44,120 nucleotides of DNA, taken from IMG/VR virus record IMGVR_UViG_3300025732_000079, positions 1-44,120 of that record; one strand, given 5' to 3'. The position numbers were made by a program, and so were the translations under genes. The notes below the pieces were generated by a model. It did not search any database. It saw only the letters and a program-made list of their open reading frames with translations, and was not told where the DNA came from. Positions 18,618 to 39,960 of this stretch are shown piece by piece. Position 1 is the first letter of the stretch. Each line of letters begins with the position of its first letter. This stretch comes from a virus (taxonomy: Duplodnaviria; Caudoviricetes).

Positions 18618-18827
18618 ATGAACTTGAGGCAATACTTTGATGGCAAGTCGCGGGGGGCTCAGGTCGAGTTAGCCCGCCAGTGCGGCATCAGCAAGACTTG
18701 GATGAACCTGTTGGTGTCGGGCCGGGAGGTGCCTTCTGCCGGGCTGGCGCTGATGATTGAGAAGTTCACCAAGGGCGCGGTGACGCGCAAGACGCTGCGG
18801 CCAGACCTTTTTGGAGACATCAAGTGA
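18618..18827 (+). CDS. Cro/YdaS-like HTH regulator
   Basis: AGGAG RBS; QVELARQCGISKTWMN HTH; TKGAVTRKTLRPDLF C-terminus. Confidence 0.85.
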   Translation: MNLRQYFDGKSRGAQVELARQCGISKTWMNLLVSGREVPSAGLALMIEKFTKGAVTRKTLRPDLFGDIK

Positions 18828-19480
18828 TCTGGTACAAGTTCCACCTCGGCGACTACATCACCCATACCCTGCACCTGTCCGATGCAGAGGACTTGGCCTA
18901 CCGTCGGCTGCTCGACCTGTACTACATGTCCGAGAAGCCTATCCCACTTGAAACCGATTCGGTATCGCGCAAGATCAGGCTTGATTTAGACATAACCGAA
19001 TCGGTTTTGGGGGAGTTCTTCGAGAAGACTCCAGATGGGTATCGACACCATCGTTGTGATGAAGAAATAGCACGATATCAGCGCCAGGTCGAGATCAACC
19101 GAACCTCTGGAAAGCGAGGCGGCAGGCCGCTGAAAACCGAATCGGTAACCGAAACGGAACCGAAAGTTAACCCTAAACAGATACAGATACAGAAGAAGAA
19201 TAAATACATATCGTCGGACAAGCCGACTCGGTTCGAGGAGTTCTGGAACACATGGCCACAGTCCAAGCGCAAGGTTGGGAAGGCTGCTGTGCTGACGAAG
19301 TGGCAGAAGCACAACCTGGACGAGGTGGCCGACCGGATCATCGCCAGCGTTGAGGCTCTGAAGTCAACCGAGCAATGGACAACCGGGTACGAGCCCGCAC
19401 CCCTGACCTTCATCAACCAACGGCGCTGGGAAGACCAAAACGAGCCCGTACAGCCGTTTTTTGCCCGGAGGGTAGTGTGA
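18824..19480 (+). CDS. Replication initiator (DUF1376/YdaU-like)
   Basis: WYKFHLGDY..T.HLS..E..AYRRLLDLYY; FEEFW..WP; FINQRRWED; internal iterons. Confidence 0.85.
   Translation: MIWYKFHLGDYITHTLHLSDAEDLAYRRLLDLYYMSEKPIPLETDSVSRKIRLDLDITESVLGEFFEKTPDGYRHHRCDEEIARYQRQVEINRTSGKRGGRPLKTESVTETEPKVNPKQIQIQKKNKYISSDKPTRFEEFWNTWPQSKRKVGKAAVLTKWQKHNLDEVADRIIASVEALKSTEQWTTGYEPAPLTFINQRRWEDQNEPVQPFFARRVV
19133..19212 (+). promoter_or_regulatory. Probable replication origin: AACCGAA iterons plus A-rich tract
   Basis: AACCGAATCGGT-AACCGAAACGG-AACCGAAAGTT then ACAGAT repeats and an A-rich run inside the initiator gene. Confidence 0.65.
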
Positions 19481-27099: not shown

Positions 27100-27285
27100 A
27101 TGTTCGACCCCAACAACAAGGACGACCTGGCGTACATCGCCGGGTTCAGCGACGGCGTGAAGTTTGTTCTGGGGGAGATCGAGCACTACATCGAGCGCCG
27201 GTCTCAAGAGCCCCGCATCACTAAACCCGTCGAAGCACTCTTGCGCCACTTGAAAGGTGAACTGGGTGAAAAGAGCATTCGGTGA
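27100..27285 (+). CDS. Hypothetical protein
   Basis: GAGGAG RBS; AYIAGFSDG. Confidence 0.7.
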   Translation: MFDPNNKDDLAYIAGFSDGVKFVLGEIEHYIERRSQEPRITKPVEALLRHLKGELGEKSIR

Positions 27286-27733
27286 GATTGCGGTCAGCGA
27301 GTTGTCCAACCCTATCCGGGGGCTTTGGTACTCGCGGCATGAGGAGCCGCAGCCGCAGGAGTTCGACGGCCTGCCTGATTGGATGGCCATAGAGCCGCAG
27401 GAAGCCGACCCAGACCTGGGACTGGTGGTGGAGTACCTGCTGTGGAGTCTCCCGGCCCGGGAGGCCAAGATCATCAGGCTGCGGTTCTGGCATGAATGCA
27501 CCCATCAAGAAATCGCCGACATGCTCGGGGTCTCAACGGTGCGTGTTGGCCAGATCGAAAAGAGGGCCCTGGAAATACTGCGCCACCCCAACCGGCTGTT
27601 GGTGCTGACACTGGCCGCCGACCTCCCTAAGCGATACCGCAACTGGGAAAGGGCCCCGCGCTGGGACTGGCTGGGGCTAAGGCGCAACTTCGACCAGTGG
27701 CTTGCCGAGGAAAGAGACCCTGAGATTTTGTAG
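27257..27733 (+). CDS. Sigma70 region-4-like HTH protein
   Basis: LPAREAKIIRLRF...THQEIADMLGVSTVRVGQIEKRALEILRHPNR resembles RpoD region 4. Confidence 0.8.
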   Translation: MNWVKRAFGEIAVSELSNPIRGLWYSRHEEPQPQEFDGLPDWMAIEPQEADPDLGLVVEYLLWSLPAREAKIIRLRFWHECTHQEIADMLGVSTVRVGQIEKRALEILRHPNRLLVLTLAADLPKRYRNWERAPRWDWLGLRRNFDQWLAEERDPEIL

Positions 27734-27737
27734 GGTA

Positions 27738-27767
27738 TTGCATTGTGATTTAAGTTTGGGTTACACT
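27738..27767 (+). promoter_or_regulatory. Early promoter 2
   Basis: GGGTA-TTGCAT-18-TACACT; near copy of promoters 3 and 4. Confidence 0.7.
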
Positions 27768-27811
27768 ACAAGCACTGCATGTCGCAGTGATAGCGAATAG
27801 GAAAGCGAATC

Positions 27812-28576
27812 ATGGAAAAGCAAACCGTCCCCTTCAGCCAACTGCTCATCGATGCCGTGAGCCAGCCTGGTGTCCTGTCCAGCGCCTACAGCGCCTTCCA
27901 CGGGTACAGCATCGGCAACCAACTGTGGGCCCTGTCCCAGTGCGCAGCCCGCAAGATCCCGCTGGGCCCCATCGCCACCTTCAAGAAGTGGCAAGAACTC
28001 GGGCGCCAAGTGCAGAAGGGCCAGAAGGCCATCTCGCTGGTGATGCCCGTCACCATCGCCAAGAAGGATGACCAAGGCGAGAAGACCGGCGAGTTCTTCT
28101 CCCTGTTCACCGTGCGCAACAACTGGTTCGTACTGAGCCAGACCGAGGGCGAGGACTTCCGTAACGAAGCCCCGACCCCCTCCTGGGACAAGGCCAAGGC
28201 CCTGGAAGCCCTGGGCATCACCGAGTCCACCTTCGACCTGGCCAACGGCAATGTGCAGGGCTACGCCCAACTCGACACCATCGCCGTTAACCCGGTGGCG
28301 GCTCTCCCCCACAAGACCCGGTTCCATGAGATCGCCCATGTGGTGCTGGGCCACACAAAAGAGGGCTTGGTGACCGACTCCGAGCTGACCCCCCGCGACA
28401 TCCGCGAAGTGGAGGCCGAGAGCGTGGCGTACATCCTGTGCAGCCTGCTGGGTTTGCCTGGTCTCGAAGAGTCCCGGGGCTACATCCAGAACTGGCTGCA
28501 AGGCGGCCAGATCAGCGACAAGAGCGCCCAGCGCATCTTCGCTGTGGCCAACAAGATTCTGGAGGCTGGCAAGTGA
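27812..28576 (+). CDS. ardC: ArdC-like ssDNA-binding / zincin antirestriction protein
   Basis: YSIGNQ, TFKKWQELGRQVQKGQKA, F.LSQTEG, HEIAH, EVEAESVAY, YIQNWL. Confidence 0.8.
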   Translation: MEKQTVPFSQLLIDAVSQPGVLSSAYSAFHGYSIGNQLWALSQCAARKIPLGPIATFKKWQELGRQVQKGQKAISLVMPVTIAKKDDQGEKTGEFFSLFTVRNNWFVLSQTEGEDFRNEAPTPSWDKAKALEALGITESTFDLANGNVQGYAQLDTIAVNPVAALPHKTRFHEIAHVVLGHTKEGLVTDSELTPRDIREVEAESVAYILCSLLGLPGLEESRGYIQNWLQGGQISDKSAQRIFAVANKILEAGK

Positions 28577-29767: not shown

Positions 29768-29852
29768 AATCCTGGCCCTTGTGACCTGCCTGGTGCTGGG
29801 GCCCATCGTGGCCCTGGCCATGCTTTTGTCCAGCCTTTGGGGGAGCCTATGA
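29751..29852 (+). CDS. Possible 33-aa membrane peptide
   Basis: GTG start; KLLLEILALVTCLVLGPIVALAMLLSSLWGSL; ATGA coupling to next gene. Confidence 0.55.
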   Translation: MKLLLEILALVTCLVLGPIVALAMLLSSLWGSL

Positions 29853-30271
29853 GCCAGAACATCGGCATGAACAAGGCCGACATCGAACAGATGATGGGCT
29901 CCATCTCATCCTGGGGCCGGGCTATGGACAAGGTCAACGGGGCCGAGCGCCGCCTGCTGTACCAGCAGTACCTGAAATCGACGCCCCCCGAAACCCTCCT
30001 GGCCATGCAAAAGGTATTCGGCTCCGGCATGAGGAATACCTTCGGCTTGACCTCAAACCACCGCAAGAACATCAGCGAATCAATGAAGGCCCGATGGGCC
30101 CAAAGGAAAGAGTATGAACGCCAAAGAAATCGACCAAATGATGCAGCACCTGCCCAGCCAGAGACACCGGTACGAACGGCGGCTGCTGGACGAGGTTTTG
30201 GCTGGCTTGGCAATAACCTTGTTTTTGACTACACTTTGTTTTATGTGAAAGCGAAGCAGAAGCGATCCTGA
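29849..30271 (+). CDS. Hypothetical protein (3' third overlaps another ORF)
   Basis: GGAG RBS; HRKNISESMKARW resembles a NUMOD3-type motif. Confidence 0.6.
   Translation: MSQNIGMNKADIEQMMGSISSWGRAMDKVNGAERRLLYQQYLKSTPPETLLAMQKVFGSGMRNTFGLTSNHRKNISESMKARWAQRKEYERQRNRPNDAAPAQPETPVRTAAAGRGFGWLGNNLVFDYTLFYVKAKQKRS
30114..30248 (+). CDS. Possible 44-aa membrane protein nested in another frame
   Basis: AAGGA RBS; MNAKEIDQMMQHL...LAGLAITLFLTTLCFM. Confidence 0.55.
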   Translation: MNAKEIDQMMQHLPSQRHRYERRLLDEVLAGLAITLFLTTLCFM

Positions 30272-30311
30272 TGCGAAGCACAACCGAATCGGTTTATACG
30301 GTATGGATCAA

Positions 30312-30358
30312 CCGCAACTGATCTAGGGGCCCGCCACAAGCGGGCCTCTTCGTTGCGG
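30312..30358 (+). terminator. Hairpin ending the early region (possible terminator)
   Basis: AGGGGCCCGC/GCGGGCCTCT stem enclosed by CCGCAAC/GTTGCGG; weak U tail. Confidence 0.45.
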
Positions 30359-30363
30359 GGTGC

Positions 30364-30393
30364 TTGACAGGGATTTGAATCTTGTCGCACAAT
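30364..30393 (+). promoter_or_regulatory. Putative sigma70 promoter of the ncRNA block
   Basis: TTGACA-18-CACAAT with no ORF immediately downstream. Confidence 0.6.
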
Positions 30394-30400
30394 GCTTTTA

Positions 30401-30519
30401 CTGCTACGGAGTGGAACCCAAAGCAGAGAGAGCCGCTAGATCAGACTCCGACCCCGTATGGGGTGCCACCCTGCCAAAAACAGGGTCGGGTTCCACCGGG
30501 GTCTGTTCTAGCGGTTTTT
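30401..30519 (+). ncRNA. C4/CI-like antisense RNA with upstream target hairpin
   Basis: Long closing stem 30431-30450/30497-30516 with two inner hairpins; unpaired GGGTTCCAC is the exact reverse complement of GTGGAACCC at 30411-30419. Confidence 0.65.
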
Positions 30520-30525
30520 GCTTTC

Positions 30526-30748
30526 CGCTCCTGGCCGTCGTACTCCGCACGCAGTAGGGGCCGCAAGTGGGGCCGCTCGGAAGGAAACCGCGCCGTACTC
30601 GAACCACCAACGGGTGCGTGCCAGCCTTGGTTGAGGGACTGGCGCAGGCATGACTGAGCGTGACCGGCTCCAGAGCAGTCATCCCGATGAATTAACCCGT
30701 CAAGCGCACTTGGTTTGCTGTGTACAGATGAGACAGGCAGATGGAGCG
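30526..30748 (+). ncRNA. Putative large pseudoknotted RNA of unknown family
   Basis: Several compatible helices found by eye; no convincing ORF. Confidence 0.45.
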
Positions 30749-30797
30749 TGGCCCAAGGCAGGGTCACCCGGAGTAGCCATGTCTTGAGAGGATTGGC

Positions 30798-30995
30798 ATG
30801 AGAATTAACCTCAAAGTTCCATTTGAAGATAAGGACAAAGCCAGAGCGGCTGGCGCTCGATGGGATGTGGCCAGGAAGACTTGGTATGTTGAGAATGCCG
30901 AGGATCTCAAGCCGTTTGCGCCGTGGATAAGTGAGGAAGTGCAGGCCTGGTTCAGCGGCAAAAAGCCTTTACCCAAGACCAGCAAGCGCCTATAA
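30798..30995 (+). CDS. DUF5710-like small protein
   Basis: GAGG RBS; LKVPFEDKDKARAAGARWD..RKTWY. Confidence 0.8.
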   Translation: MRINLKVPFEDKDKARAAGARWDVARKTWYVENAEDLKPFAPWISEEVQAWFSGKKPLPKTSKRL

Positions 30996-31091
30996 TTTCA
31001 CCGTGCGTTTGGGTTCAATTTTGAGCCGATATCAAACCGCAAGCGGACTGAAAGCGCACCGAAAGCGAATCGGTTTTCCCCACAAAGGGGG

Positions 31092-31300
31092 CCAACACGC
31101 ATGGGGATTGGGTGAATTCGGGCGGGCCGTCAGCCGCACCGATGAGCCGCAACCTGACGGATCAGTCCCCAGCCGTGTTGGTGAATGCGCAGGCTGATGC
31201 GCGACTCAGCGGCCTCACTTTCGAGTGTGGATGTTTCGGAGATGACATCGACCCAGCCGGGAGAACCGAATGCCGGAGATCAGCGCCGGCCGCCAACAGC
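31092..31300 (+). ncRNA. tRNA-like structured RNA with upstream long hairpin
   Basis: Acceptor-like stem 31177-83/31291-97, D-like and T-like arms with complementary GCTGAT/ATCAGC segments. Confidence 0.55.
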
Positions 31301-31372
31301 CCATACTGGCGACTCGAAAGCGAATCGATTACATTGCGAATCATTCGACTTTTATTCAAGGGATTACGGGTG

Positions 31373-31984
31373 ATGCCAGAAACCGTCAAGAAACCGCGCA
31401 AAAAGGCCGTAGAGGCTGCGAACGCCCCAAAGGCAGGGGCAAGTACCTCCGACGCCCAAAAACCCGCCAAAAGGCCGCAAAAGACTGGCAGACCCTCAAA
31501 GTACGACCCTGAGATCGCAAGGCAGATATGCGAACAACTCAGTGAAGGGATACCACTGAGGCAGATATGCAGGGACAACGAAGGGTTCCCGGCGTGGAGG
31601 ACGGTTTACGATTGGATGGCGAAAGATGATGCGGCTGGTTCCGCTGGCGTCGGTCTTTCCGCATCCATCGCACGCGCTCGCGACATTGGTTACGACGCGC
31701 TGGCCGAAGAGTGCTTGCTGATTGCCGACAATCCCCACTTTGGTCAGAAGCAGGTAATGACGGATCAGGGGACGGCCACGACCATCGAGGATATGCTGGG
31801 CCACCGCAAACTTCAGATCGAGACCCGGCTCAAGTTACTGGCGAAGTTCCACCCCACCAAGTACGGCGACAAGATCGGCGTGCATGGAGTTGAGGGCGCC
31901 GCTCCCATCAAAACCGAGAACGCGACGGCAGACAAGTTCTTGGAGATTATCCGCAACATGGAGATGAGCAAGCGTGCTGGCTGA
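31373..31984 (+). CDS. terS: Terminase small subunit
   Basis: GRPSKYDPEIARQICEQLSEG.PLRQIC...P..RTVYDW; HRKLQIETRLKLLAK.HP.KYGDK; directly before terL. Confidence 0.9.
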   Translation: MPETVKKPRKKAVEAANAPKAGASTSDAQKPAKRPQKTGRPSKYDPEIARQICEQLSEGIPLRQICRDNEGFPAWRTVYDWMAKDDAAGSAGVGLSASIARARDIGYDALAEECLLIADNPHFGQKQVMTDQGTATTIEDMLGHRKLQIETRLKLLAKFHPTKYGDKIGVHGVEGAAPIKTENATADKFLEIIRNMEMSKRAG

Positions 31985-33386
31985 GATTCTGGAAGACCCA
32001 GAAGTCAAGGCTGAGTTCAATGCCCAGCCAGAGCATCAGCGCATCGCCAAGATCGCCCACGCAATGTGGGTAGAAAGCGCACACAAATACCAGGTGCCGC
32101 CGCCGCTGGAGCAGGATTACCATGTTTGGGTAATGCTCGCGGGGAGAGGTGCGGGCAAGACCCGCTCCGCTGCCGAGGCCCTGTGGTGGTGGTGCTGGAT
32201 CACCCCAGAGAGCCGGGGGCTGGTGCTGGCTCCTACCAGCAACGACTTGAAGTTCACCTGCTTCGAGGGCGTATCAGGCCTGCTGTCGGTTATCCCGAAA
32301 GAATTGATCGCCGACTACAACAAGCAAGACCACCAGATCAAGTTAGTCAACGGCTCGATCATCCGGGGCATCTCGGCCGACTCCTACGAGCGCCTGCGCG
32401 GCCCTCAGTTCCACTTTGCCTGGTGCGACGAGTTGGCGGCCTTCCAGTACATCCAAGAGGCCTGGGACATGATGCAGTTCGGCCTGCGCCTGGGCGACAG
32501 CCCCAAGGTGATCGTGACCACCACCCCGAGGCCTAAAGACCTAATCCTGGAGTTGGTGGGGCGTGAGGGCCAGGATGTGATCATCGACCGCGCCAGCACC
32601 TACGACAACGCCGAGAACCTGGCGCCCACCTTCAGAAACCAACTGGAGCAGTACAAGGGCACCAAGTTGTACGAGCAGGAGGTGATGGGCTCGATCGTTG
32701 ACCTGGAGGACGGCAAGGTCGTCTCCCGGGACATGTTCCGCCTGTACCCCGCCCGCAGGGCCTTCCCGAAGTTCGAGTTCATCGTCCAGTCCTATGACTG
32801 CGCCTTCAGCGAGAAGGAGCACAACGACCCTACGGCCATGACGACCTGGGGCGTGTTCAAGCCTATGGACGGCCCCATGAGCGTGCTGCTGATCGACTGC
32901 TGGGCCGAGCACCTGACCTTCCCCAAACTCAAGGATAAGGTGCTGGACGAGTGGAAGGTGTCCTACGGCGAGGGCAAGGAGATGAAGCGCCCCGACCTGA
33001 TCCTGGTAGAGGAGAAAGCCGCAGGCATCTCGCTGATTCAAGAACTCCAGAAGGCGCACCTGCCTGTGCGGGGCTACAACCCCGGGCGGGCGGACAAGAT
33101 GCAGCGCCTACAGATCACGGCGGCCATCTTTGCTGCTGGGCGGGTGTGGCTGCCGGAGTCTGACCGTGGCAACGGGATGGTCAAGGACTGGTGCGAGGGG
33201 TTCTTGAGCCAGATATGTAGTTTCCCGGATTCGAGCCACGACGATTATGTGGACTCGGCCACGCAGGCCATGCGGCTGCTCAAGGACATGGGGTTCCTCG
33301 ACATCGATCCAGAGCCCCGATATGATGACGACGATGATTATGTGATCGAGAATCAACAGGCGCGGGTCAATCCCTACGCCCAGTGA
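31974..33386 (+). CDS. terL: Terminase large subunit
   Basis: AGRGAGKT Walker A, LRGPQF..AWCDE Walker B, TTTP, SYD, FPDSSHDDYVDS nuclease. Confidence 0.95.
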   Translation: MLAEILEDPEVKAEFNAQPEHQRIAKIAHAMWVESAHKYQVPPPLEQDYHVWVMLAGRGAGKTRSAAEALWWWCWITPESRGLVLAPTSNDLKFTCFEGVSGLLSVIPKELIADYNKQDHQIKLVNGSIIRGISADSYERLRGPQFHFAWCDELAAFQYIQEAWDMMQFGLRLGDSPKVIVTTTPRPKDLILELVGREGQDVIIDRASTYDNAENLAPTFRNQLEQYKGTKLYEQEVMGSIVDLEDGKVVSRDMFRLYPARRAFPKFEFIVQSYDCAFSEKEHNDPTAMTTWGVFKPMDGPMSVLLIDCWAEHLTFPKLKDKVLDEWKVSYGEGKEMKRPDLILVEEKAAGISLIQELQKAHLPVRGYNPGRADKMQRLQITAAIFAAGRVWLPESDRGNGMVKDWCEGFLSQICSFPDSSHDDYVDSATQAMRLLKDMGFLDIDPEPRYDDDDDYVIENQQARVNPYAQ

Positions 33387-33394
33387 GGGACTGT

Positions 33395-36300
33395 ATGGCG
33401 GACTACGGCAAGGTAATCAAAGGCGCACTGTCTGCCGTGAAGGGCACTCAGGAGGTGTTGCCAGCCGCCCAGCGAGAGGCCAACAAGGCCAAGTTCCTGG
33501 CTGAATCTAAAGACCCTCGCCGGATGTATCACGCGACGGGGATGGACTTCAAACAGTTTCTGCCTGGCGGTCAATCGCAGGCTGTGTTTGTAACGCCCGA
33601 AGCCAAATTCGCCGAAGATTTTGCGCTCAATAATTTCACAACATCACAAGGCAGTGACAAATTCCAGGCGGGCACTCAAACAATGCCTGTCCGTGTGCAG
33701 GTCAAGAATCCATTTGATTACGAGAATCCGGCTCACATAAGGCATCTCAGGGAAATGGCCCGCAAGCGATTCCCCGGTAATCAACAGGTCATGGACGAGA
33801 TTGAGGCGATGGGCCTGTTCGAGCACAACTGGCCATCGGTGGAGCACCCAGACATCCAGCGGCTGATCAAGCAAGGGGGCTACGATTCGTTCTACTCCGC
33901 CGAGCGCGGCACAAAGAATCTGGGTATCTATGACCCGCGCAAGGTCAAGTCCGAGATCGGCAACCGTGGAACCTTCGATGTGACAAACCCCGATATCACC
34001 AAGCGCCGTGGTGGCCCTGTGCGGATGCAAGCAGGCGGGGCGTTGAATGTTCTAAAGATGCTGGCCAAGGGCGAGGACGCAGCCAGCGCGGCGCAGCGGG
34101 CAGCAGCCGGGAGGCGGGCGGCTGATGTGATCAAGGCCACGGAGCCTATGAAGATGTCCGAGGCTCTTGGCGGCATGAATGTCGAAGGCAAGGGCGTTCT
34201 AAAGGTCACGCAGTCTGACCGCACCCGAGTCGGCGGCGGCAACATCGGCGGGGCCATGTTCCCCGGCCTTCAGCAGGTTGACCCCATCTATGAGGGAGCG
34301 GTCTGGGGCGTGGGCAACAAGCCGACGGCCAGTGGGCTGATCCGCCAGTCTGACGAGAACACACTATGGTCAACCCTGTTGGGGTCGGCCGATCAACTCA
34401 AGACCAATCCGCTGGTGTTCAATAAGTTGCGCAAAGGTTTCACCGACGCAATGAAGGAGGGCAAACTCTCCGACGAACTGGCCGAAAAGATCAACAAGAA
34501 CCTGGCGCTGAAGTTTGGGGAAGGGGCGGACATCCGCGACCCCAAGATTTGGCAGAAGGCCGACACTTTCGACAAGCGTGCTTTGTTGGCCGATCTGATG
34601 ATGGGCCAGGGCGTGGCTCCTGGTAAGGGCGGTGTGGCGCTGGGCGGCGAGAAGAGCGGCAAGGGCGTGATCTTCCAGCCCACGGAGATTCTCAAGCGCG
34701 AAACCGAGCCGCTGTTGATGCATCCCGAATTTGGCGGCGATGTCCCGACCTTTTCGGTGGGGCCGCGCCTGTTTACTTTGTCCGGCGAAGTCAAACAGCG
34801 CCCAGATTTGCATCCCGGGTTTCCGATCATTTTGCAGGGCGAAGACAAGGGCTTGGTATTTAAGCCAGCGCCCGGCGAGATTGCGATGCGCGATTATTAC
34901 GACCGGTTTGTCAAGAGCAAGGGCCGTGCGCCTGGTTACTACGACTGGACGCTAGGAGAAAAGGGTATTGGCCTGCCGTCGCAATTGATCACGGACAAAT
35001 ACCTCACCCACCTCCAGAAGGCGGGTTTTGCAGAAGGAGGCAATGTGGATTCATTCAGCGCACGCCTGAAAGCAGGCCTAGAGCAGTACAAGGCCGTCGG
35101 TGGGGCGGTCAATCTATCGGATACCCGGCCTGATGTGACGGACAGCGAGGCCAGGATTGCCGCGCCGTTCTACAAGAAGGGCGGAGGGGTGCAGCGGTTT
35201 GATGGCGGCGGTTATGCCGAGCCTCTAGCGGCTCCCGATGCTCCGGTCGATCCTCTGACGCGCAAGGCGTTTGCCAATCTCATGGGCAAGGGCCGGGAGC
35301 AACTGGAAAAAGAATTCAGGATGTTGATGAGCGACCCAGCGGCCCGGGCGGACATCCTGAAGCGCATCGGCCTGCAAACCGCAGGGGGCGGGTCGGACTT
35401 GCTCAACCTGCTGGCCAGTGGGGTGGACATCGCCCAGGAGCAGATTCCGGCTTTGCGCAAGCCCGCCAGTGTGCTCGACCCTTCTGGCAAGACGCTGGGG
35501 TTCCAGCCCAAGGCGGCGCTGTCGTCTGAGGAGCCGACGCTGGGCAGTGCGCACCTGATCCGCAAGGCTCAGGAGGCTGGGCTGCTAGGCGAGAACGAGG
35601 CCCCGATTACAGAGATTCTGGGCAGCATTGCGCTTGGCGCTGGTGCGGCAAACCCGGCCAAGGTTCGGGGCGGGCTCAACACCATGACGGCGGCCTCTCG
35701 CAGGCCGTTCACGCCCGCAACGGTGACGATGGAGGCTGTGGCCCCCGACCTGGCCAAGTTCAAGCCCCGCGACTGGCAGGAGACGACCACCCGCCGGTTG
35801 ATTTCTGGTGAGGGCGCTCCGGTATCGATGTCCACGGTAGGTGGCCAGAGGACGACCAAGCGGCCCGGGCAGGGGGTGTACTTCAACGACCCGGATGATT
35901 TTGGCGTGCGCCAACTAGAGACCAACCCAATGGTGGCCGTGGATGTTCCGGCAGTTGGGTCGATGGCCAAGAATCAAGCGTTCCGCCGTGACATCTCGCA
36001 GGCAGGCAAGGAGTTGGGTCAAGAGAGCGTGGCCGCACACCGGTTCCTGCCGATGCTGTCCAACACGATGGCCGACGCCAATGCGGTGCTGATCAAGCCC
36101 AGCAAGGGAACCCTGTCCAACGAGCAGGCGATTGAGTTGGGCCGCATGCTGGGCGGCGACATGGTGGTGGCGCACAACCCCCGCTTGGGTGGTGTGGTGG
36201 TGTACCCCTTCCCATTCAAAGAGGTCAAGGGCATGCCCGGCGAATTGGTTCAGGCCACGCAGGCGGCCAAGACGATTCTTGGGGAGGGCGCAAACCTGCG

Positions 36301-36463
36301 GTACGGGCGCGTTCACCCGACCAAGGACACAACCTACATCCCGAGGGCAGACTATGCTAAGGAAGGCGCAGGAGAGCCCTCAGCCGCTTCCGTAGCGATG
36401 CGAGAGCGACTGAAAAAGGGTGAGGCGCGGCTCTTCCGCGAGCGCGAGAAATCAACGCAGTAG
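33395..36463 (+). CDS. Multi-domain protein with N-terminal ADP-ribosyltransferase-like (ART-PolyVal type) domain
   Basis: MYHAT...F...VFVTP..A..FA...PVRVQVKNPFDY...GYDSF...YDPRKVKS..GNRGTFD; ~1,022 aa between terL and portal. Confidence 0.75.
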   Translation: MADYGKVIKGALSAVKGTQEVLPAAQREANKAKFLAESKDPRRMYHATGMDFKQFLPGGQSQAVFVTPEAKFAEDFALNNFTTSQGSDKFQAGTQTMPVRVQVKNPFDYENPAHIRHLREMARKRFPGNQQVMDEIEAMGLFEHNWPSVEHPDIQRLIKQGGYDSFYSAERGTKNLGIYDPRKVKSEIGNRGTFDVTNPDITKRRGGPVRMQAGGALNVLKMLAKGEDAASAAQRAAAGRRAADVIKATEPMKMSEALGGMNVEGKGVLKVTQSDRTRVGGGNIGGAMFPGLQQVDPIYEGAVWGVGNKPTASGLIRQSDENTLWSTLLGSADQLKTNPLVFNKLRKGFTDAMKEGKLSDELAEKINKNLALKFGEGADIRDPKIWQKADTFDKRALLADLMMGQGVAPGKGGVALGGEKSGKGVIFQPTEILKRETEPLLMHPEFGGDVPTFSVGPRLFTLSGEVKQRPDLHPGFPIILQGEDKGLVFKPAPGEIAMRDYYDRFVKSKGRAPGYYDWTLGEKGIGLPSQLITDKYLTHLQKAGFAEGGNVDSFSARLKAGLEQYKAVGGAVNLSDTRPDVTDSEARIAAPFYKKGGGVQRFDGGGYAEPLAAPDAPVDPLTRKAFANLMGKGREQLEKEFRMLMSDPAARADILKRIGLQTAGGGSDLLNLLASGVDIAQEQIPALRKPASVLDPSGKTLGFQPKAALSSEEPTLGSAHLIRKAQEAGLLGENEAPITEILGSIALGAGAANPAKVRGGLNTMTAASRRPFTPATVTMEAVAPDLAKFKPRDWQETTTRRLISGEGAPVSMSTVGGQRTTKRPGQGVYFNDPDDFGVRQLETNPMVAVDVPAVGSMAKNQAFRRDISQAGKELGQESVAAHRFLPMLSNTMADANAVLIKPSKGTLSNEQAIELGRMLGGDMVVAHNPRLGGVVVYPFPFKEVKGMPGELVQATQAAKTILGEGANLRYGRVHPTKDTTYIPRADYAKEGAGEPSAASVAMRERLKKGEARLFREREKSTQ

Positions 36464-39354: not shown

Positions 39355-39536
39355 GGTACACCTCCGACTTCATCGCTGTGGTTAAGCAGCGGCAAGCCGA
39401 AATCGCCCAGAGCCTTGCGCAGGGACAGTGCATGACTTTTGAGGCGTATCAGCGGCTGGTCGGTACTTATGCGGGTCTTGTTGAAGCCCTTGAAATTCTC
39501 AACAACCTTTTAGAGGAATCTAATGAAGATGACTGA
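39351..39536 (+). CDS. Hypothetical head-module protein
   Basis: 61 aa; LAQG...FEAYQRLVG...GL. Confidence 0.75.
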   Translation: MRYTSDFIAVVKQRQAEIAQSLAQGQCMTFEAYQRLVGTYAGLVEALEILNNLLEESNEDD

Positions 39537-39960
39537 GCCGGTAGCGTTCACAGACGCTGATGTGCGGGAAGCCTTTCCTGCTGTAGACCCCGGTGCAAAA
39601 CCCCTCGGAGCCCGAGTTTTGGTGCAGTTGCGGCGCACCAAGAAGAAGGTCACGAGTGCCGGGATTGTTTTGGTCGAGGAAACTCGCGAGACGGAGAAGT
39701 GGCAGAACATGGTGGGCAAAGTTATCGAACTTGGCCCCCTTGCTTTCCGCAAGCGAGACACGATGGAGCCTTGGGTAGAGGGCACTTGGTGCGAAGTGGG
39801 TGACTACATTCGCGTTCCCAAGTGGGGTGGAGACCGCTGGGAGGTCAAGGCCCCCGGTGATGACGACACCGAAGACCCAATTCTGTTCATGGTTCTCAAC
39901 GACCACGAGGTAATCGCCAAGATTACTGGTAATCCCCTAGAAATGAAGGCATTTGTATGA
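39523..39960 (+). CDS. groES: GroES-like co-chaperonin
   Basis: PLGARVLV...TSAGIVL...GKVIELGP..VGD...LNDHEVIA. Confidence 0.85.
   Translation: MKMTEPVAFTDADVREAFPAVDPGAKPLGARVLVQLRRTKKKVTSAGIVLVEETRETEKWQNMVGKVIELGPLAFRKRDTMEPWVEGTWCEVGDYIRVPKWGGDRWEVKAPGDDDTEDPILFMVLNDHEVIAKITGNPLEMKAFV

What the first reader, a model, noticed from the sequence alone, without database searches (positions are those of the whole stretch)
30526..30748. Candidate ~220-nt pseudoknotted ncRNA downstream of the antisense switch
Seen: closing helix CGCTCC/GGAGCG (30526/30743); long-range CAAGTG/CACTTG (30564/30707); hairpins 30594-30618, 30618-30645 and 30650-30682; and loop sequence GGTTGA (30629) complementary to TTAACC (30692). 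No RBS-backed ORF. Inference: a compact ribozyme-like or scaffold RNA that I cannot assign to a known family. Short helices in GC-rich DNA can occur by chance.
Basis: inference. Interest (0 to 1): 0.7.

Follow-up and report, generated by a model that had tools for sequence, protein, structure and literature searches.

The report
Knotted phage RNA beside headless initiators
This stretch is part of a conserved, roughly 250-base RNA-type element with a predicted multiply knotted fold, absent from the Rfam catalogue and found in many uncultured phages, often next to a replication-start protein that lacks its DNA-binding half, so the RNA likely helps start phage DNA copying.

Summary
Real, and larger than reported. 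30526-30748 is most of a conserved ~250-nt non-coding element (about 30537-30785, + strand) in an uncultured phage. There are 78 non-redundant members; the 72 aligned average 61% identity. On 71 of them, 43 of 49 modelled pairs show compensatory change. I found a second pseudoknot in a swappable 5' module and two loop-to-3'-tail pairings. No Rfam match.

It sits directly behind a promoter and c4-like hairpin, a slot filled in other phages by unrelated RNAs, including Rfam Betaproteobacteria-1. 16 of 21 near-complete carrier genomes encode only the C-terminal half of a replication initiator, and none has a T7-type primase-helicase. Best reading (0.35): the RNA is the origin-opening, ColE1 RNA II-like part of a replication module. 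Against: this phage has a full initiator, primase and helicase; the cassette is accessory here; the skew test gave no support. Transcription and catalysis are not shown.

The parts
30355..31028 (+). Accessory cassette: promoter, c4-like hairpin, structured RNA and DUF5710 ORF
   Evidence: One contig of run X11 joins 30354 to 31029 (674 skipped, letters between not known, 30 letters on the short side, depth 26), while another contig of the same run covers 30563-31001. The RNA core is absent from 28 of 28 related phage records.
30364..30393 (+). Sigma-70-like promoter (TTGACA-18-CACAAT), predicted to drive the hairpin and the RNA
   Evidence: consensus match only.
30400..30525 (+). c4-like long hairpin ending in a U tract; 'c4-like' is a recalled label, not an Rfam match
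   Evidence: Arms 30433-50/30497-514 and 30411-19/30488-96; segments complementary to upstream 30216-27 and 30318-30. A stable hairpin (z <= -2) lies just upstream in 21 of 22 family members tested, and a U tract in 58 of 68.
30537..30785 (+). The conserved structured RNA (family I), full extent
   Evidence: Alignment A1. A near-identical copy in run X5 has different letters before 30536.
30539..30585 (+). 5' module, an H-type pseudoknot: P1 30539-41/30549-51; PK1 30544-47/30578-81 plus C30548-G30575; hairpin P1b 30559-74. Shared with other RNA families.
   Evidence: Covariation (helices 1-4). The same module precedes different 3' bodies in 45 loci classed II or III; a breakpoint lies at 30592 in run X5.
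30594..30618 (+). Hairpin P2 with A/C-rich loop
   Evidence: covarying pairs 30598-30599 with 30610-30611.
30620..30643 (+). Hairpin P3 with invariant bulged A30638; its loop holds the pseudoknot strand 30629-34
   Evidence: 7 of 7 pairs compensatory (six of them were required by the descriptor).
30650..30682 (+). Hairpin P4; its loop carries segment A (GTGACC 30660-65) and segment B (GCTCC 30667-71)
   Evidence: 9 of 9 pairs compensatory; loop-tail tests.
30689..30706 (+). Near-invariant GAA, pseudoknot partner TTAACC (30692-97) and 2-bp hairpin P5
30709..30746 (+). Hairpin P6, variable in length, with a conserved CTTG/GGAG base
   Evidence: helices 9-10.
30748..30781 (+). 3' tail: local hairpin P7 (30748-54/30761-67) competing with A' (GGTCAC 30762-67); B' = GGAGT 30770-74, which is also a Shine-Dalgarno-like site before ATG 30779 (Met-Ser-stop)
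   Evidence: A pairs A' with 5 or more WC bp in 74 of 76, B pairs B' with 4 or more in 73 of 76; 0 of 1000 permutations reach either mean. P7 takes 3 or more of the 7 A' bases in 72 of 75.
30798..30995 (+). DUF5710 ORF, 65 aa, a passenger in the cassette
   Evidence: PF18974, E 6e-19.
18824..19480 (+). The phage's own full-length DUF1376 initiator; its C-terminal half is homologous to the stand-alone 'headless' proteins beside most homologous RNAs
   Evidence: PF07120; profile of 14 headless proteins matches it at E 4e-18; primase and helicase follow.

Best explanation
This is a conserved ~250-nt non-coding element with covarying hairpins and pseudoknots, placed directly behind a promoter and a c4-like hairpin, and it likely works as the RNA part of a phage replication origin, in the manner of ColE1 RNA II. 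Steps: (1, shown) the fold is conserved, and its G-U pairs point to the + strand. (2, predicted) it is made by read-through of the hairpin's U tract, which would put it under the same control as the antisense hairpin. (3, shown) two segments of the P4 loop covary with two consecutive segments at the 3' end, which also form a competing local hairpin. (4, inferred) the folded transcript would clamp its own 3' end or the displaced DNA strand there, leaving a lasting R-loop or primer. (5, inferred) the stand-alone C-terminal initiator domain would then bring in the host helicase, so the RNA would replace the missing origin-binding half. In this particular phage the cassette is accessory, so it would be a second origin or a passenger.
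For: Structure. Strand: conserved G-U pairs outside the descriptor-required helices, e.g. 64, 57, 55 and 54 of 71. Link to replication: a headless initiator lies within the +/-1.5 kb locus in 26 of 57 family members. All 48 evaluable closest homologues of that protein have a stop within 60 codons upstream, and 24 sit by this RNA. 46 of those 48 have some hairpin-plus-RNA slot (42 by motif, 4 by eye), against 0 of 19 loci of full-length initiators for this family. Of 21 carrier records at least 90% complete, 16 have only a headless initiator, 3 have a full one, 2 are unresolved, and 0 have a phrog_239 primase-helicase. In complete G001 the RNA and headless gene sit between the recombination arm and ninB, where lambdoid O/ori lies (layout recalled). 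In sister family II a 7-9-nt direct repeat covaries (7.1 vs 5.2, 0 of 1000) with no complementary partner upstream in the RNA, which fits RNA-DNA pairing. ColE1 precedent: PMC5043065, passages.
Against: The window's phage has a full DUF1376 initiator, primase and helicase, as does G012; G031 and G047 also carry a helicase. None of the 14 other members of the window's own subtype has a headless gene within 1.5 kb. The RNA core is absent from 28 of 28 relatives of the window. The headless-protein sample is biased: the query came from genes beside this RNA, and only the best 80 of 393 matches from 11 of 64 parts of the collection were kept. Much of the association may be one clade. The strand-skew test showed the expected sign in only 7 of 20 genomes, and six controls showed the same reversed pattern. 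Covariation cannot tell RNA-RNA from RNA-DNA pairing. The conserved SD-like site and start codon (63 of 76) fit a translational switch equally well.
Confidence: 0.35

Rival explanations
1. A cis-acting conformational switch: docking of the P4 loop on the 3' tail hides the Shine-Dalgarno site, the local P7 hairpin frees it, and the state is set by a protein (perhaps the headless initiator itself), the antisense hairpin or a ligand.
For: Two exclusive partners for A' in 72 of 75. B' is the GGAG in the window's subtype. ATG or GTG follows in 63 of 76 and opens the next gene in many loci.
Against: The downstream genes are unrelated: headless initiator in 14 of 56, also terS, capsid, methylase, Mom, YbcO, HNH and DUF5710. 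In several loci a fresh promoter-like TTGACA/TATAAT follows the RNA (L304, L358). The headless gene lies upstream in 9 of 57.
Confidence: 0.25
2. A stand-alone, trans-acting RNA or RNP scaffold (host-factor decoy, superinfection or lysogeny aid), co-transcribed with the antisense hairpin and unrelated to origin firing.
For: It moves as a cassette among unrelated phage types and genome positions, has 24 columns at least 97% conserved, and occurs in a record classed as a provirus (G035).
Against: It does not explain why nearly all sampled headless initiators have one or another RNA in this slot. No enrichment in two metatranscriptomes (contigs only).
Confidence: 0.2
3. A new self-cleaving or processing ribozyme; the shared 5' module would cut the antisense hairpin free of the read-through transcript.
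For: A small pseudoknotted module with conserved junction bases sits right behind the hairpin in at least three families. The parallel A/B pairing on the tail resembles how group II introns hold exons (recalled).
Against: No ribozyme family matched. No invariant C before GAA. Families IV, V and Betaproteobacteria-1 fill the slot without this module.
Confidence: 0.12
4. The structure acts as single-stranded DNA (a priming or primosome-assembly signal) rather than as RNA.
For: The replication context; the same idea was raised for the STAXI motif (PMC2864571, passage).
Against: It nearly always lies behind a promoter-like site and hairpin in one orientation, with many conserved G-U pairs.
Confidence: 0.06
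5. Chance helices in GC-rich spacer DNA.
For: Single-sequence statistics are at chance.
Against: The descriptor hits 256 sources against 1 hit in a shuffled set of like size; compensatory changes in 43 of 49 pairs.
Confidence: 0.01

Closest known systems
Betaproteobacteria-1 RNA (Rfam RF02932)
   Same: Fills the same slot: in MW202545.1 it follows a hairpin 84% identical over 87 nt to the window's.
   Different: Different sequence and fold; the model does not match the window or the homologues. What its authors wrote about it could not be read (supplement of PMC5737381).
ColE1 RNA II pre-primer
   Same: Promoter-driven, folded non-coding RNA in a replicon without an origin-binding initiator, with an antisense-type element at its 5' side (PMC5043065, passages).
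   Different: About 250 nt against 550 nt; in tailed phages; linked to a headless initiator; no counter-transcript fully complementary to its 5' end was identified; R-loop and priming are untested.
c4 antisense RNA (RF01695) and P4 CI-type leaders
   Same: The upstream hairpin has segments complementary to nearby sites.
   Different: That is the neighbour, not this RNA, and Rfam c4 does not match even the hairpin.
STAXI motif
   Same: Pseudoknot element near DNA-handling genes, occasionally near c4 RNAs (PMC2864571, passage).
   Different: STAXI is a small pseudoknot repeated 2-3 times; no match here.
HDV-like and theta ribozymes; GOLLD, ROOL and raiA large ncRNAs
   Same: Multiple pseudoknots; phage association.
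   Different: No HDV topology or catalytic C (HDV features recalled); no tRNA in the window; less than half the length of ROOL (581 nt); no Rfam match.

Membership tests
Any Rfam 15 family | Score at or above the gathering threshold | tested here: not met
   0 matches in the window; none over the RNA in homologous loci.
Conserved structured ncRNA | Compensatory base changes among diverged homologues | tested here: met
   43 of 49 pairs; 93% of cells paired vs 71% shuffled and 25-41% slid. 14 pairs were required by the selection descriptor. No tree-aware test such as R-scape was available.
Conserved structured ncRNA | No conserved reading frame | tested here: met
   Lengths mod 3 are 29/27/22; only 32 of 78 have any open + frame.
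Conserved structured ncRNA | Transcribed as RNA | tested here: inconclusive
   A contig of metatranscriptome X18 covers 30668-30895 at depth 3.4, but that run covers 23 of 30 bins of the 20-kb stretch at similar depth.
Betaproteobacteria-1 (RF02932) | Match to the family model | tested here: not met
   only L083 matches.
HDV-like and theta ribozymes | Invariant catalytic C before GAA in J4/2 (feature recalled) | tested here: not met
   C37/T28/G4/A2 of 71; T in the window.
HDV-like and theta ribozymes | Nested double pseudoknot P1/P1.1/P2/P3/P4 (recalled); theta type next to a tRNA | tested here: not met
   The covarying helices follow another order; no tRNA in the window.
Self-cleaving ribozyme of a new class | Site-specific self-cleavage | not testable with these tools
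   Needs in vitro transcription.
ColE1-type RNA-primed origin | Replicon lacks an origin-binding initiator | tested here: inconclusive
   True for 16 of 21 near-complete carriers; false for 3 and for the window.
ColE1-type RNA-primed origin | Persistent RNA-DNA hybrid, RNase H cut and Pol I extension | not testable with these tools
   No assay available.
ColE1-type RNA-primed origin | Origin maps to the RNA locus | tested here: inconclusive
   Skew fits are confounded by gene strand and gene class; expected sign in 7 of 20.
ColE1-type RNA-primed origin | Counter-transcript complementary to the RNA's 5' end | not tested
   The simple scan found no - strand promoter-like site in 29800-31500; not pursued further.
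Gene-specific riboswitch or leader | Consistent class of downstream gene | tested here: not met

The most novel reading that the evidence does not exclude
Many small uncultured tailed phages have swapped the origin-binding half of their initiator for one of at least five unrelated, interchangeable, multiply pseudoknotted RNAs. The RNA opens its own template and, with the left-over C-terminal domain, loads the host helicase: an RNA-protein hybrid initiator that travels as a ~0.7-kb cassette.
Probability: 0.3. Interest if true: 0.92.

Novelty: new variant of a known kind. Interest (0 to 1): 0.75.

Why it matters
Even without a function, this is an uncatalogued, strongly covarying, multi-pseudoknot RNA family with a swappable 5' domain. 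It comes with several sister families in the same slot, and that slot gives the orphan Rfam motif Betaproteobacteria-1 a testable context. If the origin reading holds, it explains how complete 32-38-kb phages replicate with no recognisable initiator head, primase or helicase. It would also extend RNA-primed origins, known from ColE1 and T4, to a modular RNA-plus-protein form.

Tried and rejected
Single-sequence folding: uninformative. Protein-coding reading: rejected, although GenBank MW202484.1 annotates its copy as a hypothetical protein. A loose regular expression for the family rang falsely in 4 initiator loci and 5 terS loci; the strict descriptor cleared them. Strand-skew mapping of the origin: one genome (G024) had its minimum at the RNA, but across 20 genomes there was no support and the controls behaved alike. 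Expression: contigs only, low and spread over the phage; X19 has no cover in the RNA's bin, which proves nothing. Structure of the headless protein: poor model (pLDDT 67, pTM 0.36), no PDB sequence relative, and no fold comparison was obtained, so its fold is open. No cultured phage or plasmid with the RNA: the only GenBank hit is an uncultured spring phage. The two genome-contig hits are short MAG contigs (4.3 and 1.6 kb) and say nothing reliable about the host. The idea that the GGGTC tail tracks a phage primase was dropped: G031 has a helicase with the other tail type. Three look-ups of earlier scan findings returned nothing.

Full report
SETTING. The window is a virus record of 44,120 bases, linear, estimated 82% complete: a tailed phage with terS, terL, portal and head genes to the right of the finding and a DUF1376 initiator, primase and DnaB-type helicase at 18.8-20.9 kb. 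The runs that hold this DNA are labelled freshwater or aquatic, with one small-share marine run. The finding lies between a sigma-70-like promoter (30364-93) plus a long hairpin ending in a U tract (30400-525) and a 65-aa DUF5710 ORF. I call the hairpin 'c4-like' from recall and from its complementarity to 30216-27 and 30318-30; Rfam's c4 model does not match it.

OBSERVATION. A profile search of 82 related loci gave one hit, L076 (E 0.003), which kept the loop and its partner. Pattern scans then gave 97, 120 (scan stopped early, about 200 estimated), 116 and 74 loci; these overlap and include chance matches. A structure descriptor (P3 with bulged A, 6-bp pseudoknot, 2-bp hairpin) hit 256 sources in 2.44 Mb against 1 hit in 2.35 Mb shuffled; 78 are non-redundant. 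The 72 aligned (6 with insertions or odd tails left out) average 61% identity; the window is 49% identical on average and 69% at most.

STRUCTURE. On alignment A1 (71 rows; L357 also left out) a 49-pair model has 93% of cells paired, with compensatory change in 43 pairs. The controls give 71% (shuffled) and 25-41% (slid). Caveats: 14 pairs (six of P3, the pseudoknot, P5) were required at selection; the shuffle ignores relatedness; and the window's subtype is out of register in P4 and at the 5' end of A1. P1, PK1, P1b, P4, P6 and P7 were not selected for and still covary. 125 of 127 loci fetched by 5'-module patterns and matched by a sequence-only profile satisfy the pseudoknot. The window's own subtype (15 distinct members) adds further partner pairs. 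The fold, 5' to 3': an H-type pseudoknot module (30539-85), P2, P3 whose loop pairs with 30692-97, P4, GAA, P5, P6 and a 3' tail. Two segments of the P4 loop pair with two consecutive tail segments in the same order: 5 or more WC bp in 74 of 76 and 4 or more in 73 of 76, with 0 of 1000 permutations reaching either mean. The first tail segment also forms a local hairpin in 72 of 75, so the two pairings exclude each other in one RNA molecule. The second is or abuts a Shine-Dalgarno-like site, with ATG or GTG behind it in 63 of 76. 24 columns are at least 97% conserved. Conserved G-U pairs point to the + strand. There is no reading-frame conservation.

MODULARITY. The 5' module also precedes different bodies: of 228 loci fetched by its two patterns with enough sequence, 160 are family I, 40 family II, 5 family III and 23 other (some of the 'other' are divergent family I). 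The window's module is nearly the same as family II's. In DNA run X5 one contig matches 30556-92 and continues as family II, and another matches 30536-31185 with different letters before it. In run X11 one contig joins 30354 to 31029, leaving out promoter, hairpin, RNA and DUF5710 (one contig, 30 letters on the short side, letters between unknown), while another carries the RNA. A covariance model of the core finds none in 28 related records, 9 of them at least 90% complete, while 5 known or suspected carriers ring. In this phage the RNA is therefore an accessory cassette.

THE SLOT. A stable hairpin lies just upstream in 21 of 22 members tested and a U tract in 58 of 68. In MW202545.1 a hairpin 84% identical to the window's is followed by Rfam Betaproteobacteria-1. 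Downstream genes vary, but a 120-140-aa protein matching only the C-terminal part of initiator families (phrog_9474 179-255 of 288, phrog_270 179-249 of 383) lies in 26 of 57 loci, 17 downstream and 9 upstream, and is homologous to the C-terminal half of the window's DUF1376 protein. From the protein side: of 80 loci kept, 61 non-redundant and 48 with enough flank, all 48 are headless and 24 have family I. 18 more carry motifs of three other RNA-like types and 4 more look so by eye, leaving 2 without. Those other types were not tested for covariation, apart from the family II repeat. None of 19 loci of full-length initiators has family I. Of 49 records searched, 23 are at least 90% complete and 21 of these carry family I: 15 have only the headless gene, G029 has a headless O-like gene, G027, G030 and G033 have a full initiator, and G008 and G038 are unresolved. 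0 of 23 match the primase-helicase profile. Only parts of the ORF sets of five records were scanned against PHROGs, and DNA polymerases were not searched for genome-wide.

MECHANISM. I commit to an RNA-dependent origin at 0.35; that a conserved structured element exists is about 0.97. ColE1 has no plasmid-encoded initiator: a promoter-driven RNA forms a lasting hybrid that opens the origin and primes, under antisense control (PMC5043065, passages). Here the RNA sits where the initiator's DNA-binding half would be, its tail has two exclusive partners, and sister family II has a covarying direct repeat with no RNA partner (29 sequences), as expected if an inner RNA segment pairs with DNA at the end of its own unit. 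All functional steps are inference. Against it: this phage and G012 have full protein modules, and G031 and G047 carry a helicase; none of 14 subtype members has a headless gene within 1.5 kb; the protein sample is biased and may be one clade; skew gave the expected sign in 7 of 20 genomes; transcription is not shown. Rivals: translational switch 0.25, trans-acting scaffold 0.2, ribozyme 0.12, ssDNA signal 0.06.

PRIOR ART. No Rfam match. Seven full-text searches (listings and abstract openings only) found no description. Read: Weinberg 2017, PMC5737381, passages only, supplement unreadable (that it is the source of Betaproteobacteria-1 is recalled); Weinberg 2010, PMC2864571, passages; Fremin 2023, PMC10690425, passages and three supplement files, with no motif hit, but its alignment archives, PDFs and one table were not searchable, so parts of this family may be among its more than 10,000 unnamed candidates; Eckert 2023, PMC10085705, abstract, one section and a supplement search. 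Subscription papers and preprint supplements were not visible.

VERDICT. A real, apparently undescribed multi-pseudoknot RNA family in a reusable genomic slot, with a specific and testable link to initiators that lack their DNA-binding half. Interest 0.75.

Noticed in passing
window 31040-31385: A second conserved non-coding stretch directly upstream of terS, with inverted repeat 31092-110/31163-81. It hits dozens of terS-related loci, many contigs of other organisms in three RNA runs, and a similar piece sits inside a family II RNA in L204. No Rfam match at threshold. It may be another structured RNA.
   Followed up: no
L193, L197, L482, L487, L497 and others (family II): A separate ~250-nt RNA-like element with the window's 5' module, a G-rich 3' hairpin and a covarying 7-9-nt direct repeat.
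   Followed up: partly
L423, L426, L480, L481, L486, L489 (IV); L447, L490, L461, L463 (V); L312, L339, L344 (III); L432, L412; L002: Further unrelated RNA-like occupants of the same slot. No Rfam match in those scanned; covariation untested. L023 has type IV upstream of terS.
   Followed up: partly
L083 2606-2790 (MW202545.1): Rfam Betaproteobacteria-1 covers 118 nt, but RNA-like sequence continues to a CCACC tail like family I's, so the Rfam model may be a fragment of a longer RNA.
   Followed up: no
L364; L318 and L320: Natural variants: L364 fuses the 5' module straight to the 3' tail ahead of a headless gene; L318 and L320 carry the 5' module twice.
   Followed up: no
G016 about 4,538 (-) and 23,008 (+): Two descriptor hits in one genome; the second may be a second copy or chance.
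   Followed up: no
window 30222-30294: Short GCGAAGCA-type repeats, shared with L055, L057, L074 and L075; related copies at 31054 and 31309.
   Followed up: no
window 33383-36463: A 1026-aa ORF between terL and portal with no PHROG match.
   Followed up: no
window 27257-28576, 39523-39960: Sigma-factor-like gene, ArdC-like anti-restriction gene and GroES-like gene.
   Followed up: no
L497 2915-2987: int-alpA RNA (RF02996, just over threshold) between a family II RNA and the headless gene.
   Followed up: no
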